From Escherichia phage ETEC-TG, in the sequence record OR786310.1: a stretch of 64,000 nt of DNA; one strand, written 5' to 3'. Below, one piece after another: positions 27,001 to 30,000 of this stretch (the first letter of the stretch is position 1; the number at the start of each line of letters is the position of its first letter). The position numbers were made by a program.

Positions 27001-30000
27001 TACTGTTTATCAGCATCTTCTAAAAAGCACCTCATAGAGCACATTAGAGACAGAGTAGAAAGAGAAGGCGGATACTTCTTCGAAACTAAGAGAAACGAAC
27101 AAGGAACTCTTGACTTCACTAAGGTTTACTGGGACAATCATACTCGTCAAACTGTTGAACAACTTCTGGAGGAAAGATGTTAAAAGCTTTTGCTGTATAC
27201 TCTACTGTAGGATTCTTTTATTGGATTATAGTTGTTGTTGGATGTTGGTTGGGTTCTTCTGTTGTGATGGGAGAATGGTTAACATACAATGTATTTGAAT
27301 GGGATGTAGTTTGTAGATCATTACTTGTTATATGGACTGCTATTGTTTGTTGGATAACTGTTAGTCTAACATTAGATCTATATTGATTAATAGATGGTAG
27401 ATAGATGATCATAGTTTATCTACCTTCACTTACGTTTCATACCTCACTATCGTGAGTAACATGAAACATTATTATATAGAAATCTACTACTCGCTATCGC
27501 TCGTAAACATATGTTTAGGGTACCATATTTTTTTGAAAAAGTCAATGCTGACTCACCTATCAATTATCCGTTTAAGATAAGTCTTACCTATCAATCTAAC
27601 TCTTAACTAGTATTGCACCTATAGTAAGACTATTCCTATAGTTATTAACCCTCTTCTTCTGTAGAATGTAATTAGATCCTTGACAAACTCACAAAGCTTG
27701 TGTTACATTGTGTCTCACAGGTGAATAATACCAAACAGGAGGAAGAATGAGTTCCAATTTTCTATACAAAGCAAAAGATTCACGAGATGGAGAGAACCAT
27801 TGGTGGTTGATCACAGGAGATGGTGTTATCATCCTGCCGTGGGACGGAGAGACGAAAGTTCAAATACTAGAGAAAGTAAAAGGTGTTAGTTTTAATGTTA
27901 GTCATGACATAACAACTTTCAAAGCTTTTGCTATGAATCCTAGTCTTGTTGCTGAATGGTAATCCAGGAGAAAATATGACTAAAATGTATGCAGCCGTTG
28001 ATAAGCTGGATGGGTCTGATTCTGTTTTTATTTTGAATAAAATGGGTGTCTTAGTTTATGCCCGAACTTCTCAAAACATAGAACACCAAGTGGAAGCAGC
28101 ACAAATTTTAGAGCAAATAACCCCTCCATACCTATACTCAAATGTTGAGCGTTTTAACGATGCACTTGGTTTGACGTTAATAGCGGAATGGTAATAATGG
28201 CGAAAATGTTGGAAATTGATAATGTCGTAACAATCACTACGTCCACACCTTGTTCTCCTATGCCTTGCCCCTATTGTGGTGGTGCAGGATATGTTATGGC
28301 GGATGTAGGTCAAATTTACGAGTGTAACCCGTGCAAAACCACAGGTTATATCCAAATAGAATCAGAGGAGAAACACTATGAGCCAAAACACTAAAGAAAA
28401 AGAAGTAATCACGGTAATCCGTCAGATGGAAGGTGCCGAAAACAATGCTTTTGTTACTAAGATTCTTCTTAATATCTTTGAAGATGTTATTTTAAACAAT
28501 CCTGGTCATAAAGATTATCAGTATGATGTTATGATGGGTGCTTTGCTTGAGATTAACAAAAACACTTTTGCTGAATATGAGCAACACATGCTTTTACCAG
28601 AGGAAGATCAGGATTATTTGTTATCTGGTGCTTTAAGTGCACAAGAAAATTTCTACCACGTTCTTAATATGGCTTATGCAGATGAACTTGCTGTTTCCCT
28701 TGAAGAGCGTATTCAAATGGTTCGTGATGTGATGAATGAACAAATCCAAGAAGTTGAAGACTTGGTAGCAGAACCTTTAGCAGAAATTCGTGCAGCTATT
28801 GAAAAACAAAAAGGAACTCAATCATGATGCAAGTAGGTGATGTGGTTTGCCTTAAAGGTGCAAACAAACAAATGACAGTAATAGAAAGTTATGGTGAATC
28901 TTGTAAAGTAACTTGGTTCGATGAAAACGGGGAATTGCAACACGCTATATTCGATCAAAAAGCTTTGAGGAAGGTTGAAGAAAAAGAATGAACCATCCGT
29001 CAATATTTTTCTGTTTTGTAGATCTTGAAAACGAGTCTTTAATCGTTGATAGTGAGGGTTACTTCACTTATTGGGAATCCGAGCACGAAACTATAAGTGT
29101 AGTGAAAGAAATTATGCAAACCAATCCAAACCTACCAGCGCATAAGTACGGTATTGCAAAAGTGTTTGTTACTAAAACAGAGTACACAAAAGAGCGAAGC
29201 ACTTTGTACCATAATATTGAAGTGATTCACTATTTCAAAGATGTTATTTAGGAGGTTATATGGAAGAGAAGATTTGGGATGGTAAAGATCCTTTAGAAGT
29301 TGGACACGTAGCGCGTGTCAAAAAATCTACCACAGGTCCTGGTTTTTCTGGTTTGTATCATATACCAGAAGAAGGTCAGCACGTTACAATTTTGGCTCGT
29401 GACAAACAAAACGGAGCAACGCCTGTGTGGATTGTTCGTTGGTATGACAAAGATCTTAACATTTGCTTGTCACCTATTATGGCTCATTTGCTGGAAGCCC
29501 CTTGCTCTGAAGAAGCTCTAATTTTTGTTTCGGCTTTTCAGAAAGCCACAGGTTTAACATTAGATGCAAAAGATGTGCAAAAAGCATTTGACATTATTCA
29601 GGAAGACAACGATACTACATCTAACGACGAACTGGTTGAAGTTACAATCTTATCTTCAGCAGATATCCGAGAGATTGATAATTGTGATTTTCCAATCACA
29701 TTTAAAATGTCGCAGAAAGACATGCAGTCATCTGGAAGTTGTTTTGGTATACCTCGTTGGTTTTTTGATTCTATCAAAAATTCTACTACAGAGGGATCAG
29801 ACTATGATCAAGATGACGTGCTTTGGTTCTTAAAAAACCGAGAGATTGTTCTCTCACCACTTAAATAAGGAGAAATAATGGTTTCATTTATCGTAGGTGT
29901 AGTTGTAGGCTATCTTATTAACAAATATCAAGACGTTATCACGGCAAAAGTAAAAGACATTTTAGACTCATCTAAATAATCTATCAAAGCTGCATCTTCA

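What the first reader, a model, noticed from the sequence alone, without database searches (positions are those of the whole stretch)
27390..27745. 360-bp intergenic gap with an extended palindrome and ACCTATCAAT direct repeats
Inside the packed plus-strand block, a non-coding gap contains the imperfect palindrome GTTTCATACCTCACTATCGTGAGTAACATGAAAC (27434-27467) and two ACCTATCAAT repeats 31 bp apart (27555, 27586), followed by a promoter at 27680-27708. It could be an operator for a phage regulator or a secondary origin.
Basis: seen in the sequence. Interest (0 to 1): 0.4.

Follow-up and report, generated by a model that had tools for sequence, protein, structure and literature searches.

The report
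Conserved backward-facing phage promoter cassette

Summary
The window is a Phapecoctavirus, 99.9% identical to Escherichia phage dw-ec.

- A sigma-70 promoter with an extended -10: TTGACT 27545-27540, 17 bp, TGG, TACCCT 27522-27517.
- A 22-nt hairpin about 4 nt after the predicted start. Its core CGAGCG-N1-2-AGCGAG folds as C:G, G.A, A.G, G:C, C:G plus a GNA or GNNA loop.

phAPEC8 carries exactly three such promoter-plus-box modules. Two of them head gene blocks. The copy in this gap is always antisense, in at least six lineages of Stephanstirmvirinae.

Between divergent lineages this element is the only DNA that blastn still detects. The flanking genes are replaced.

The palindrome (27434-27467) is the second hairpin of the predicted minus-strand RNA, and its stem shows compensatory changes. 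It may also terminate plus-strand transcripts.

The ACCTATCAAT repeats belong to a CCKATYAAT site family. The proximal copy sits at a fixed position, about -50 from the start, so I read them as regulator-binding sites.

The 39-aa ORF annotated here in some records is broken by stop codons in every other lineage.

Function is inferred: regulated convergent or antisense transcription at an operon boundary. An origin role is not excluded. No expression data exist.

The parts
27177..27386 (+). Last gene of the upstream early block. It encodes a 69-aa hydrophobic protein of unknown function, phrog_24123. The antisense promoter points at it.
   Evidence: A homolog (51% identity) is present in phiWec190. 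Unrelated genes occupy this position in Tr1, the phi92-type and L015 lineages.
27397..27425 (+). Hairpin C, GGTAGATAGAT...AGTTTATCTACC. It is terminator-like for the upstream plus-strand operon, with a weak U-tract.
   Evidence: I1. 11 bp on the plus strand including two G:U pairs, against 8 bp on the minus strand. Annotated as a terminator in ASO2A. The phiWec190 copy also keeps G:T wobbles on the plus strand (read from the sequence).
27434..27467 (.).
   Evidence: Stem UUUCAUG:CAUGAAA is conserved in the L070 group and compensated in L023 (UUCCAUG:CAUGGAA) and phiWec190 (AUUGC:GCAAU). On the plus strand it is followed by a YUUUUAGC tract in the L070 group.
27486..27507 (-). Box hairpin A, UUAC-CGAGCGAUAGCGAG-... 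The core is at 27503-27490: C:G, tandem G.A/A.G, G:C, C:G, loop GAUA. The closing stem is UUAC:GUAG.
   Evidence: RNAalifold keeps all 6 pairs in 12 of 12 orthologs, with UA/UG, GU/UA/AU and CG/AU covariation. Pair counts. The purine strand folds at -5.0 kcal/mol against -1.8 for its complement. The box is unique in the window.
27510..27510 (-). Predicted transcription start, an A seven nt after the -10 hexamer with a pyrimidine at -1. Inferred, not mapped.
   Evidence: Read from the sequence. Paralogs carry a conserved YGAA at the same distance.
27517..27545 (-). Antisense promoter P(-): -35 TTGACT (27545-27540), 17-bp spacer, extended -10 TGG (27525-27523), -10 TACCCT (27522-27517).
   Evidence: The grammar TTGAC[AT]-N-TGnTAnnnT occurs 16 times in the window against 0.5 expected, and this is the only antisense instance. 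Invariant across the group and conserved in phiWec190, Tr1, phi92-type and metagenomic lineages.
27556..27564 (.). Proximal CCTATCAAT site, centred about -50 from the predicted minus-strand start.
   Evidence: Same position in at least 7 lineages. The 14-mer CCTATCAATTATCC recurs at 12875-12888.
27587..27595 (.). Distal CCTATCAAT site, 31 bp from the proximal one, about -81 from the start.
   Evidence: In other lineages the distal site differs in distance and orientation.
27680..27709 (+). Promoter P(+) for the downstream genes: TTGACA, 18 bp, TGT, TACATT. It is divergent from P(-).
   Evidence: Invariant in the phAPEC8 group and absent from lineages with a shorter gap.
27737..27962 (+). Ribosome-binding site AGGAGG (27737-27742) and the downstream 71-aa gene (27747-27962, phrog_16110). 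This is the one neighbour that stays linked to the element.
   Evidence: 38% identical to the gene next to the phi92-type ortholog of the element.
27461..27580 (+). 39-aa ORF annotated in some records (phAPEC8_0059). Rejected as a gene.
   Evidence: Stop codons interrupt the same frame in phiWec190 (codon 3) and in all other lineages.

Best explanation
The gap is a compound regulatory cassette at the boundary between two early transcription units.

Shown by sequence and comparison:
1. Two hairpins follow the upstream operon (27397-27425 and 27434-27467).
2. A minus-strand promoter matches the phage's own promoter grammar: TTGACT, 17 bp, TGG, TACCCT, at 27545-27517.
3. About 4 nt after the predicted start at 27510 lies a conserved hairpin (27507-27486). 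Its core CGAGCG-N1-2-AGCGAG forms two Watson-Crick pairs, a tandem G.A/A.G, a closing C:G and a GNA or GNNA loop.
4. Two CCTATCAAT sites lie at about -50 and -81 from that start.
5. A divergent plus-strand promoter (27680-27709) serves the next genes.
6. The promoter-plus-box module is one of three paralogs per genome. This copy has no gene behind it and is convergent with the upstream genes in every lineage.

Inferred:
- Host RNA polymerase starts at P(-). It makes a non-coding RNA of roughly 80-130 nt or more: box hairpin, AU-rich linker, then the palindrome hairpin.
- That RNA overlaps in antisense the 3' end of the upstream operon. Beyond that it is probably stopped by Rho, because the downstream minus-strand RNA is C-rich and G-poor and has no intrinsic terminator.
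- An unidentified regulator bound at the CCTATCAAT sites sets P(-) activity.
- Convergent transcription and pairing with the upstream mRNA 3' end limit read-through and expression across the boundary.
- The 5' box hairpin is a class-specific element shared with the two mRNA-leading paralogs. It is either a 5' stabiliser or a binding site for a phage factor.
For: Promoter.
- The strict grammar occurs 16 times in the window against 0.5 +/- 0.7 in shuffles. Fifteen instances face the local genes.
- P(-) is invariant in 8 aligned genomes.
- It is conserved with correct 17-18 bp spacing in about 37 distinct elements from phage, IMG/VR and metagenome records.

Unbiased association of box and promoter. 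In the whole phAPEC8 genome the box occurs exactly 3 times. Each copy lies 12-13 nt after TGSTACCCTA with a TTGACT -35.

Strand and structure.
- The box hairpin is kept in 12 of 12 orthologs, with covarying closing pairs and G:U pairs valid only on this strand.
- 96.8% of cells are paired against 89.4% in shuffles (0 of 500). Four pairs change on both sides. Slid controls give 32-53%.
- The purine strand folds better than its complement in three copies.
- Flank permutation: mean outward stem 1.84 against 0.96 +/- 0.19, 0 of 2000.
- The 1- or 2-nt variable centre fits a loop, not a double-stranded DNA site.

Selection.
- Between divergent lineages only the element aligns by blastn.
- The faced gene is replaced in several lineages.
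- The antisense orientation is kept in the window group, phiWec190, Tr1, L015, the phi92-type and the L070 group.

Non-coding. There is no conserved ORF on either strand and no Rfam or tRNA match.

Sites. The proximal CCKATYAAT site has a fixed position. The sites are invariant while the spacers between them vary.

Rut-like downstream RNA. 54 C against 18 G in 224 nt, and no minus-strand terminator.
Against: - There are no transcript data for any member of this phage subfamily (literature searches).
- The -10 hexamer matches the consensus at only 3 of 6 positions, so the generic promoter scan did not list it.
- The hairpin energies are modest: -5 kcal/mol, z = -1.7.
- The covariance model finds the window copy only at E about 0.006-0.05.
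- The covariation counts come from related sequences and from a model-fitted alignment.
- My collection-wide patterns required TAGGGTA and the box arms. Their invariance in those hits is therefore partly ascertainment. Only searches are unbiased.
- The faced gene is not conserved, so no specific antisense target exists.
- In lineages with a short gap no separate plus-strand promoter is visible. Plus-strand read-through must cross P(-), and its consequences are unknown.
- The outer closing stem is only 1-2 bp in several paralogs.
Confidence: 0.5

Rival explanations
1. Replication origin of the T4 oriF/oriG type. The promoter-plus-box modules would be primer promoters. Their transcripts would form persistent R-loops in downstream easily melted DNA. 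The purine-rich hairpin on the displaced strand would help keep the loop open. The gap copy would be an orphan secondary origin.
For: There are three dispersed copies per genome and one has no gene to express. Two of the only three regions of the phAPEC8 genome with at least 92.5% A+T per 40 nt lie 70-220 nt downstream of copy 1, at the divergent junction. Copy 2 is followed by an 80% A+T stretch (99.4th percentile). T4 origins are a promoter plus a DNA unwinding element (PMC4412123). The phage encodes a T7-like primase/helicase and a Pol I-type polymerase (annotation).
Against: Downstream of the gap copy the most AT-rich 40-mer is only 75% A+T (96th percentile). No iterons were found and no initiator is known. 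AT-rich DNA at a divergent junction is also expected for ordinary promoters. Nothing was measured.
Confidence: 0.12
2. Factor-loading leader, working like lambda nut or HK022 put. The 5' box hairpin would recruit a phage or host factor to RNA polymerase or to the transcript, for antitermination, stabilisation or processing. This would serve the long operons headed by copies 1 and 2. The orphan gap copy would then send modified polymerase backwards through the early block, or act as a decoy for the factor.
For: A sequence-invariant loop and core is presented on a variable stem at a fixed distance from the start, in the few promoters that head 30-45 kb gene blocks. Several predicted terminators lie inside those blocks (annotation).
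Against: No boxA-like element is conserved; only CGCTC on the wrong strand (read from the sequences). There is no Rfam match. No candidate binding protein was identified, and neighbouring proteins have no informative domains.
Confidence: 0.15
3. There is no antisense function. The conserved block would be a shuffling cassette like the T4 PeSLs, made of terminator and promoter. It would be kept similar among its three copies by recombination and mark the borders of exchangeable gene modules. Only the plus-strand terminators and P(+) would matter for expression here.
For: Gene content changes exactly at the edges of the conserved block. The right neighbour is replaced in phiWec190 and the left neighbour in Tr1, L023 and L015. 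PeSLs are composite terminator/promoter repeats at such borders (PMC4122927).
Against: The orphan copy keeps its antisense orientation, its own upstream CCKATYAAT sites and its own downstream hairpin in at least six lineages. The three copies differ from one another outside the roughly 45-nt core, so copy-to-copy conversion cannot explain the conservation of copy-specific parts.
Confidence: 0.13
4. Type I toxin-antitoxin-like pair. The minus-strand RNA would be an antisense regulator of the 69-aa hydrophobic protein encoded at 27177-27386.
For: The faced gene encodes a small, very hydrophobic protein in the window group and in phiWec190. The promoter is convergent with it.
Against: In Tr1, the phi92-type, L015 and the L070 group the faced gene is an unrelated soluble protein while the element is kept. 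The predicted structured part of the RNA ends before the gene's stop codon.
Confidence: 0.04
5. A small protein-coding gene (39 aa, 27461-27580, plus strand) fills the centre of the gap, as annotated in phAPEC8, ASO2A and dw-ec.
For: The ORF is annotated in those records.
Against: The frame holds stop codons in phiWec190 (ATG CAA TAA) and in every other lineage, although the DNA is conserved. There is no good ribosome-binding site. Other annotators do not call it.
Confidence: 0.02

Closest known systems
PeSL cassettes of T4-type phages (promoter-early stem-loop; Arbiol et al. 2010, PMC2839356; Comeau et al. 2014, PMC4122927)
   Same: Both are repeated composites of a sigma-70-type early promoter and a stem-loop. 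Both lie in intergenic DNA at the borders of gene modules that differ between related phages.
   Different: PeSLs are many per genome, co-directional with the genes, and their stem-loop is a terminator. Here there are three copies. The conserved hairpin lies after the start site and has an invariant tandem-G.A core. One copy is antisense.
T4 replication origins oriF and oriG (middle-mode promoter plus DNA unwinding element; R-loop primer; summarised in PMC4412123)
   Same: A few dispersed promoters, at least one without an obvious coding purpose. Extreme AT-rich DNA lies downstream of one paralog.
   Different: No MotA-type promoter. The gap copy lacks a marked unwinding element. No replication data exist.
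Lambda nut sites and HK022 put RNAs (promoter-proximal RNA elements that modify RNA polymerase; from my knowledge of the literature)
   Same: A small conserved hairpin element close to the 5' end of transcripts from a few promoters that head long operons.
   Different: No sequence or structural homology. No conserved boxA. No N-like protein identified. No Rfam match.
Phage cis-antisense RNAs such as lambda oop and P22 sar (from my knowledge of the literature)
   Same: A short non-coding RNA from a promoter convergent with an early transcription unit, overlapping its 3' part.
   Different: Those RNAs have a defined target gene and an intrinsic terminator. Here the faced gene is not conserved and no minus-strand terminator is seen.
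The early promoter plus GGGCGGCAATGGTGCCGC hairpin modules of phAPEC8, annotated as 'PHIRE' promoters
   Same: The same phage and the same layout: an extended -10 promoter followed within about 10 nt of the start by a conserved hairpin.
   Different: A different hairpin and a different -10 hexamer. Nine or more copies, all sense and clustered in the early region. The box class has three dispersed copies with an invariant TACCCT.
5'-terminal stem-loop stabilisers of E. coli mRNAs, for example the ompA leader (from my knowledge of the literature)
   Same: A hairpin within about 4 nt of the RNA 5' end.
   Different: Stabilisers need only structure. Here the sequence of the core is invariant across lineages, which suggests specific recognition.

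Membership tests
Sigma-70 promoter with extended -10 | -35 hexamer close to TTGACA, 16-18 bp spacer, TG one base upstream of the -10, and a -10 of the form TAnnnT | tested here: met
   TTGACT, 17 bp, TGG, TACCCT at 27545-27517. This grammar is 32-fold enriched in the window.
Sigma-70 promoter with extended -10 | Transcription starts there in vivo or in vitro | not testable with these tools
   No transcript data were found.
Intrinsic terminator (hairpins 27397-27425 and 27434-27467) | G+C-rich stem directly followed by a U-tract on the transcribed strand | tested here: inconclusive
   Not listed by the scan. The stems are A+U-rich and the U-tracts weak in the window. The L070-group orthologs have a UUUU tract 3-4 nt after the stem. 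TransTermHP/WebGeSTer called 27396-27434 in ASO2A.
Any Rfam RNA family or tRNA/tmRNA | Covariance-model score at or near the gathering threshold | tested here: not met
   No hit at gathering over the whole window. Only chance-level snoRNA hits at E > 2. No tRNA.
Protein-coding small gene | Reading frame kept open in relatives that keep the DNA | tested here: not met
   Stop codons in all other lineages.
T4-type PeSL cassette | Composite of terminator stem-loop and early promoter, repeated, at borders of variable gene modules | tested here: inconclusive
   Repeated three times, and gene replacement occurs at the borders. But the orientation and the hairpin position differ from the description.
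T4-type R-loop origin | Promoter followed by a DNA unwinding element | tested here: not met
   For this copy the maximum A+T is 75% per 40 nt (96th percentile). The feature is met for paralog copy 1 at 97.5%.
T4-type R-loop origin | Replication initiates there | not testable with these tools
   Needs marker-frequency analysis or 2-D gels.
Type I toxin-antitoxin | Conserved pairing of a small toxic membrane peptide gene with an overlapping antisense RNA | tested here: not met
   The faced gene is hydrophobic only in two lineages and unrelated in the others.
Lambda-type nut site | boxA (CGCUCUUA-like) plus a boxB hairpin on the transcript | tested here: not met
   The only boxA-like string (CGCTCGTAA) is on the opposite strand and is not conserved beyond CGCTCG.
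IHF or DnaA binding site (for the CCTATCAAT repeats) | WATCAANNNNTTR for IHF; TTATNCACA for DnaA | tested here: not met
   By eye. TATCAA is present but the TTR part is absent in all copies. TTATCCGTT matches the DnaA box at 6 of 9 positions only.

The most novel reading that the evidence does not exclude
The TGnTACCCTA promoter plus tandem-G.A hairpin would be a new class of promoter-proximal nucleic-acid element of Stephanstirmvirinae that does more than start mRNAs. Either it marks the phage's replication origins: primer promoters whose purine-rich hairpin on the displaced strand stabilises an R-loop, with the gap copy as an orphan origin. Or it loads a phage factor onto RNA polymerase or the transcript, with the orphan copy acting as decoy or as an antisense silencer of the early block.
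Probability: 0.25. Interest if true: 0.7.

Novelty: new variant of a known kind. Interest (0 to 1): 0.5.

Why it matters
Phages of the phAPEC8 and phi92 group are widely isolated and are used as therapy candidates and as model phages in the BASEL collection. I found no description of their transcription programme or of their replication origins.

This analysis gives three things:
- a testable promoter grammar, with 16 sites in this window;
- two classes of promoter-plus-5'-hairpin modules;
- a three-copy class with an invariant -10 and an unusual tandem-G.A hairpin that is the most conserved non-coding DNA of the subfamily.

The orphan antisense copy gives a defined place to look for antisense control of early genes, for a regulator that binds CCTATCAAT-type sites, or for an origin.

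It also corrects a spurious 39-aa gene call carried in several GenBank records.

Tried and rejected
- Rfam at gathering and at permissive thresholds, and ARAGORN: nothing.
- The generic promoter/terminator scan does not list P(-), because its -10 matches only 3 of 6 positions. The phage-specific grammar test replaced it.
- I first took the phi92 gp208 promoter (L003) for the ortholog because blastn ranks it first. Flanking proteins are unrelated. The true phi92-type ortholog is L023/L084, which is antisense and next to a homolog of the downstream gene. The gp208 promoter is more likely the positional counterpart of phAPEC8 copy 2.
- The 39-aa ORF was rejected.
- A leaderless AUG mini-ORF (MFTSDSE) at the predicted start is not conserved in Tr1 (read).
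- The type I toxin-antitoxin idea was rejected.
- IHF, DnaA-box and lambda boxA resemblances were rejected by inspection.
- Pfam and PHROGs give no function for the four nearest genes.
- The degenerate CCKATYAAT motif is not enriched window-wide: 6 found against 5.4 expected. Its significance rests on position and on the exact 14-mer repeat.
- The CCTATAGT pair (27618 and 27635) is not conserved in phage ukendt, so I did not count it as sites.
- The mini-palindrome between the -10 and the box (AAACATATGTTT) probably straddles the start site. I did not interpret it.
- Many hits of the collection-wide patterns are chance or unrelated: L011, L020, L028, L033, L049, L050, L063, L065, L075, L080, L087, L103.
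- Literature searches for transcriptomes or promoter studies of this subfamily found nothing relevant.
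Full report
IDENTITY AND OBSERVATION

The window is a Phapecoctavirus (Stephanstirmvirinae). The region 26000-29500 is 99.9% identical to Escherichia phage dw-ec and 98-99% identical to about 60 phAPEC8-like genomes.

The gap 27387-27746 lies between a 69-aa hydrophobic ORF (27177-27386) and a 71-aa ORF (27747-27962), both on the plus strand.
- The palindrome is at 27434-27467.
- Two ACCTATCAAT copies are at 27555 and 27586. They are the only two in 64 kb, against 0.2 expected.
- A good plus-strand promoter is at 27680-27709.
- A further hairpin at 27397-27425 follows the upstream stop codon. It is annotated as a terminator in phage ASO2A.

Both strands of 27385-27512 fold better than all 200 shuffles.

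WHAT IS CONSERVED

A sensitive blastn of the gap shows that the conservation is not uniform.
- The phiWec190 group keeps only 27396-27602, at about 84% identity.
- More distant genera keep only about 27453-27549, at 79-85%.

Within 8 aligned genomes the invariant islands are the stretch ACTACTCGCTATCGCTCGTAAACATATGTTTAGGGTA, the AAAAGTCAAT block, and the two CCTATCAAT sites. The DNA between these islands varies.

Read on the minus strand, the core is a promoter: TTGACT (27545-27540), 17 bp, TGG, TACCCT (27522-27517). The generic scan missed it because TACCCT matches the -10 consensus at only three positions, although those are the three critical ones.

The phage's own grammar is decisive. TTGAC[AT], 16-18 bp ending in TGn, then TAnnnT occurs 16 times in the window, against 0.5 +/- 0.7 in Markov shuffles. 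Fifteen of these face the local genes, including nine early promoters and P(+). The sixteenth is this minus-strand site, the only antisense one.

THE BOX

Twelve to thirteen nt after the -10 lies CGAGCGATAGCGAG (27503-27490).

An unbiased search of the complete phAPEC8 genome finds GAGCG-N1-2-AGCGA exactly three times. Each copy lies behind TGSTACCCTA and a TTGACT -35:
- Copy 1 is at 57.9 kb on the plus strand, at the divergent junction before the tRNA and structural block.
- Copy 2 is at 134.5 kb on the minus strand, near the head of the replication-gene block.
- Copy 3 is the gap element, antisense in the early plus-strand block.

Pattern scans of IMG/VR and of metagenomes recover about 37 distinct modules that have a -35. 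In these scans, each of several roughly 150-kb Stephanstirmvirinae contigs carries up to three matches.

The central 1-2 nt of the box vary (A, C, AT, AA, GG) while the arms are fixed. On the purine strand the box folds as C:G, G.A, A.G, G:C, C:G with a GNA or GNNA loop. That 5'-CGAG-3' tandem G.A mismatches are a stable sheared motif is from my knowledge of the RNA literature, not tested here.

Evidence for the hairpin and its strand:
- A variable centre is tolerated by a loop but not by a double-stranded DNA site.
- RNAalifold on 12 orthologs keeps all six canonical pairs in all sequences. The closing stem covaries (UA/UG, GU/UA/AU, CG/AU) and uses G:U pairs that would be A-C mismatches on the other strand.
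- A covariance model of the box hairpin plus the next hairpin finds the window copy (27439-27511, minus strand, 18.9 bits).
- On the resulting alignment 96.8% of cells pair, against 89.4% in shuffles and 32-53% when partners are slid. Four pairs change on both sides. That alignment is fitted to the model and the sequences are related, so these numbers lean towards the structure.
- The purine strand folds at -5.0, -4.3 and -8.7 kcal/mol in three copies, against -1.8 to -2.9 for the complements.

A conserved YGAA, or YA in this copy, seven nt after the -10 suggests the start site. That would put the hairpin within about 4-10 nt of the RNA 5' end. This is inferred.

The same layout, a promoter followed by a conserved 5'-proximal hairpin, is seen at the nine early promoters of the window. 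Those carry a different hairpin, GGGCGGCAATGGTGCCGC.

THE ORPHAN COPY

The true orthologs of the gap element are L004/L096 (phiWec190 type), L005 (Citrobacter phage Tr1), L015/L092, L023/L084 (phi92 type) and the metagenomic L070 group. In all of them the module points against the flanking genes.

The gene it faces is not conserved. It is a hydrophobic 66-69-aa protein in two lineages and an unrelated soluble protein in the others. The gene on the other side (phrog_16110) is homologous in the phi92-type ortholog (38% identity). The start-codon contexts suggest the same in the L070 group (read; not tested by alignment).

Between these lineages blastn detects only the element itself, 41-155 nt, and not the surrounding genes.

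There is no conserved ORF. The annotated 39-aa frame is full of stop codons elsewhere.

THE PALINDROME

In the orthologs a hairpin occupies the same place, 15-25 nt after the box:
- UUUCAUG-N5-CAUGAAA in the L070 group;
- UUCCAUG:CAUGGAA in L023;
- AUUGC:GCAAU in phiWec190;
- AUAGUGU:ACACUAU in Tr1.

In the window group an inner stem-loop is inserted into its loop. It is therefore a conserved, covarying hairpin, not a protein operator.

It is nearly strand-symmetric. On the minus strand it gains three wobble pairs in the window. On the plus strand it is followed by a U-rich tract, clearest in the L070 group. It may serve both as the second hairpin of the minus-strand RNA and as a terminator of the upstream operon.

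Hairpin 27397-27425 is better on the plus strand, 11 bp with G:U pairs against 8 bp.

No intrinsic terminator for the minus-strand RNA is found. Beyond the hairpins that RNA is C-rich and G-poor, 54 C against 18 G in 224 nt. That composition favours Rho-dependent termination of an untranslated RNA; this is an inference.

THE REPEATS

The ACCTATCAAT copies are members of a CCKATYAAT family. The proximal site occupies exactly -42 to -34 from the -10 hexamer, about -50 from the start, in at least seven lineages. The distal site varies in distance and orientation. In Tr1 and L015 the sites form inverted repeats.

The exact 14-mer CCTATCAATTATCC recurs at 12875-12888, about 100 bp upstream of gene 12990. 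CCTATCAAC overlaps the start region of another promoter at 35277-35249.

The degenerate motif is not enriched window-wide. The case for a binding site therefore rests on position, on invariance and on the 14-mer. The regulator is unknown, and the neighbouring proteins carry no informative domains.

MECHANISM

I commit to the following. The gap is a boundary cassette in which a regulated, backward-facing promoter makes a structured non-coding RNA. That RNA overlaps the 3' end of the upstream early operon. Convergent transcription and RNA pairing limit expression and read-through across the boundary. P(+) restarts transcription for the next genes.

The 5' box hairpin is a class mark shared with the two mRNA-leading paralogs. 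It is either a stabiliser or a factor-binding site.

The anatomy is well supported. I put the promoter at about 0.75 and the box hairpin at about 0.7. The function is inferred, at about 0.35-0.5.

RIVALS
- Origin of the T4 oriF/oriG kind. Two of the three most AT-rich regions of the phAPEC8 genome follow copy 1. The gap copy has no such element.
- A nut- or put-like factor-loading leader.
- A PeSL-like shuffling cassette without antisense function. Gene replacement does occur at the borders of the block.
- A type I toxin-antitoxin pair: rejected by comparison.
- A small gene: rejected.

NOVELTY

I found no description of this module. The phAPEC8 record annotates other promoters but not this one. 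Papers on rV5 and ASO2A list only generic sigma-70 predictions. No transcriptome of the subfamily turned up.

It is a new variant of known kinds: phage promoter-hairpin cassettes and cis-antisense RNAs. Its hairpin is unusual and its conservation is strong.

Noticed in passing
window 996-9144, plus strand. Hairpins at 2282, 4027, 6063, 6935, 8854 and 9128, plus variants after the promoters at 996, 1356, 2433, 2884, 5743, 7832 and 8015.: At least nine early extended -10 promoters are each followed, about 10 nt after the -10, by a conserved GC-rich hairpin (GGGCGGCAATGGTGCCGC and variants). phAPEC8 annotates these as 'PHIRE' promoters. This is a second class of promoter-plus-5'-hairpin module.
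   Followed up: partly
window 11490-12990: A 1.5-kb stretch without credible ORFs, CDS-free in phAPEC8 at 5,513-7,021. It follows a strong terminator (GGGCGCACCAAGCGCCC plus a T-run at about 11463-11490). It holds A/C-rich repetitive sequence, a box-like GAGCGAATAGCGA in phAPEC8, and the 14-mer GGATAATTGATAGG at 12875-12888. The rV5 paper also mentions an unexplained non-coding block.
   Followed up: partly
window 35237-35245 (minus strand) and 58998-59026 (minus strand): CCTATCAAC lies 4 nt after the -10 of the minus-strand promoter 35277-35249, upstream of the 313-aa gene 34277-35218. CTATCAATTATC follows another promoter-like site near 58990. These may be further sites of the same unknown regulator.
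   Followed up: no
phAPEC8 NC_020079 57,968-58,116 (L060 7968-8116), about 2 kb beyond the window end: Two of the only three regions of that genome with at least 92.5% A+T per 40 nt lie 70-220 nt downstream of paralog copy 1, at the divergent junction before the tRNA genes. This makes the site a candidate replication origin.
   Followed up: partly
window 27747-27962 and 27976-28194: These are tandem paralogous small genes (phrog_16110 and phrog_24460; the second also hits phrog_16110 at E = 5e-4). Both products end in (V/I)AEW. The family stays linked to the antisense element across genera.
   Followed up: partly
IMG/VR loci L012-L014, L019, L021, L022, L024-L026, L029, L032, L035-L038, L042, L044, L045, L047, L052, L055-L058: An unrelated group of small viral contigs carries a divergent pair, about 70 nt apart, of TACCCTAT-C7-AACGAGCG(A/G/C)AGCGAG. 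This is the same -10-like word and the same tandem-G.A box in a different architecture. Common origin or convergence was not resolved.
   Followed up: no
metagenome loci L063, L065, L103: The hairpin GTCATTC-CGAGCG(A/C/AT)AGCGAG-GAATC occurs in unrelated, non-phage-like contigs without a -35. The tandem-G.A mini-hairpin may be a more general motif.
   Followed up: no
window 56722-56750 and 32550-32579 (minus strand): Two promoters of the minus-strand gene block are followed at once by a GC-rich hairpin plus a T-run, and then by a ribosome-binding site. An example is GCCTACCT...AGGTAGGCTTTTT before the ATG near 56710. This looks like a promoter-proximal terminator or attenuator.
   Followed up: no
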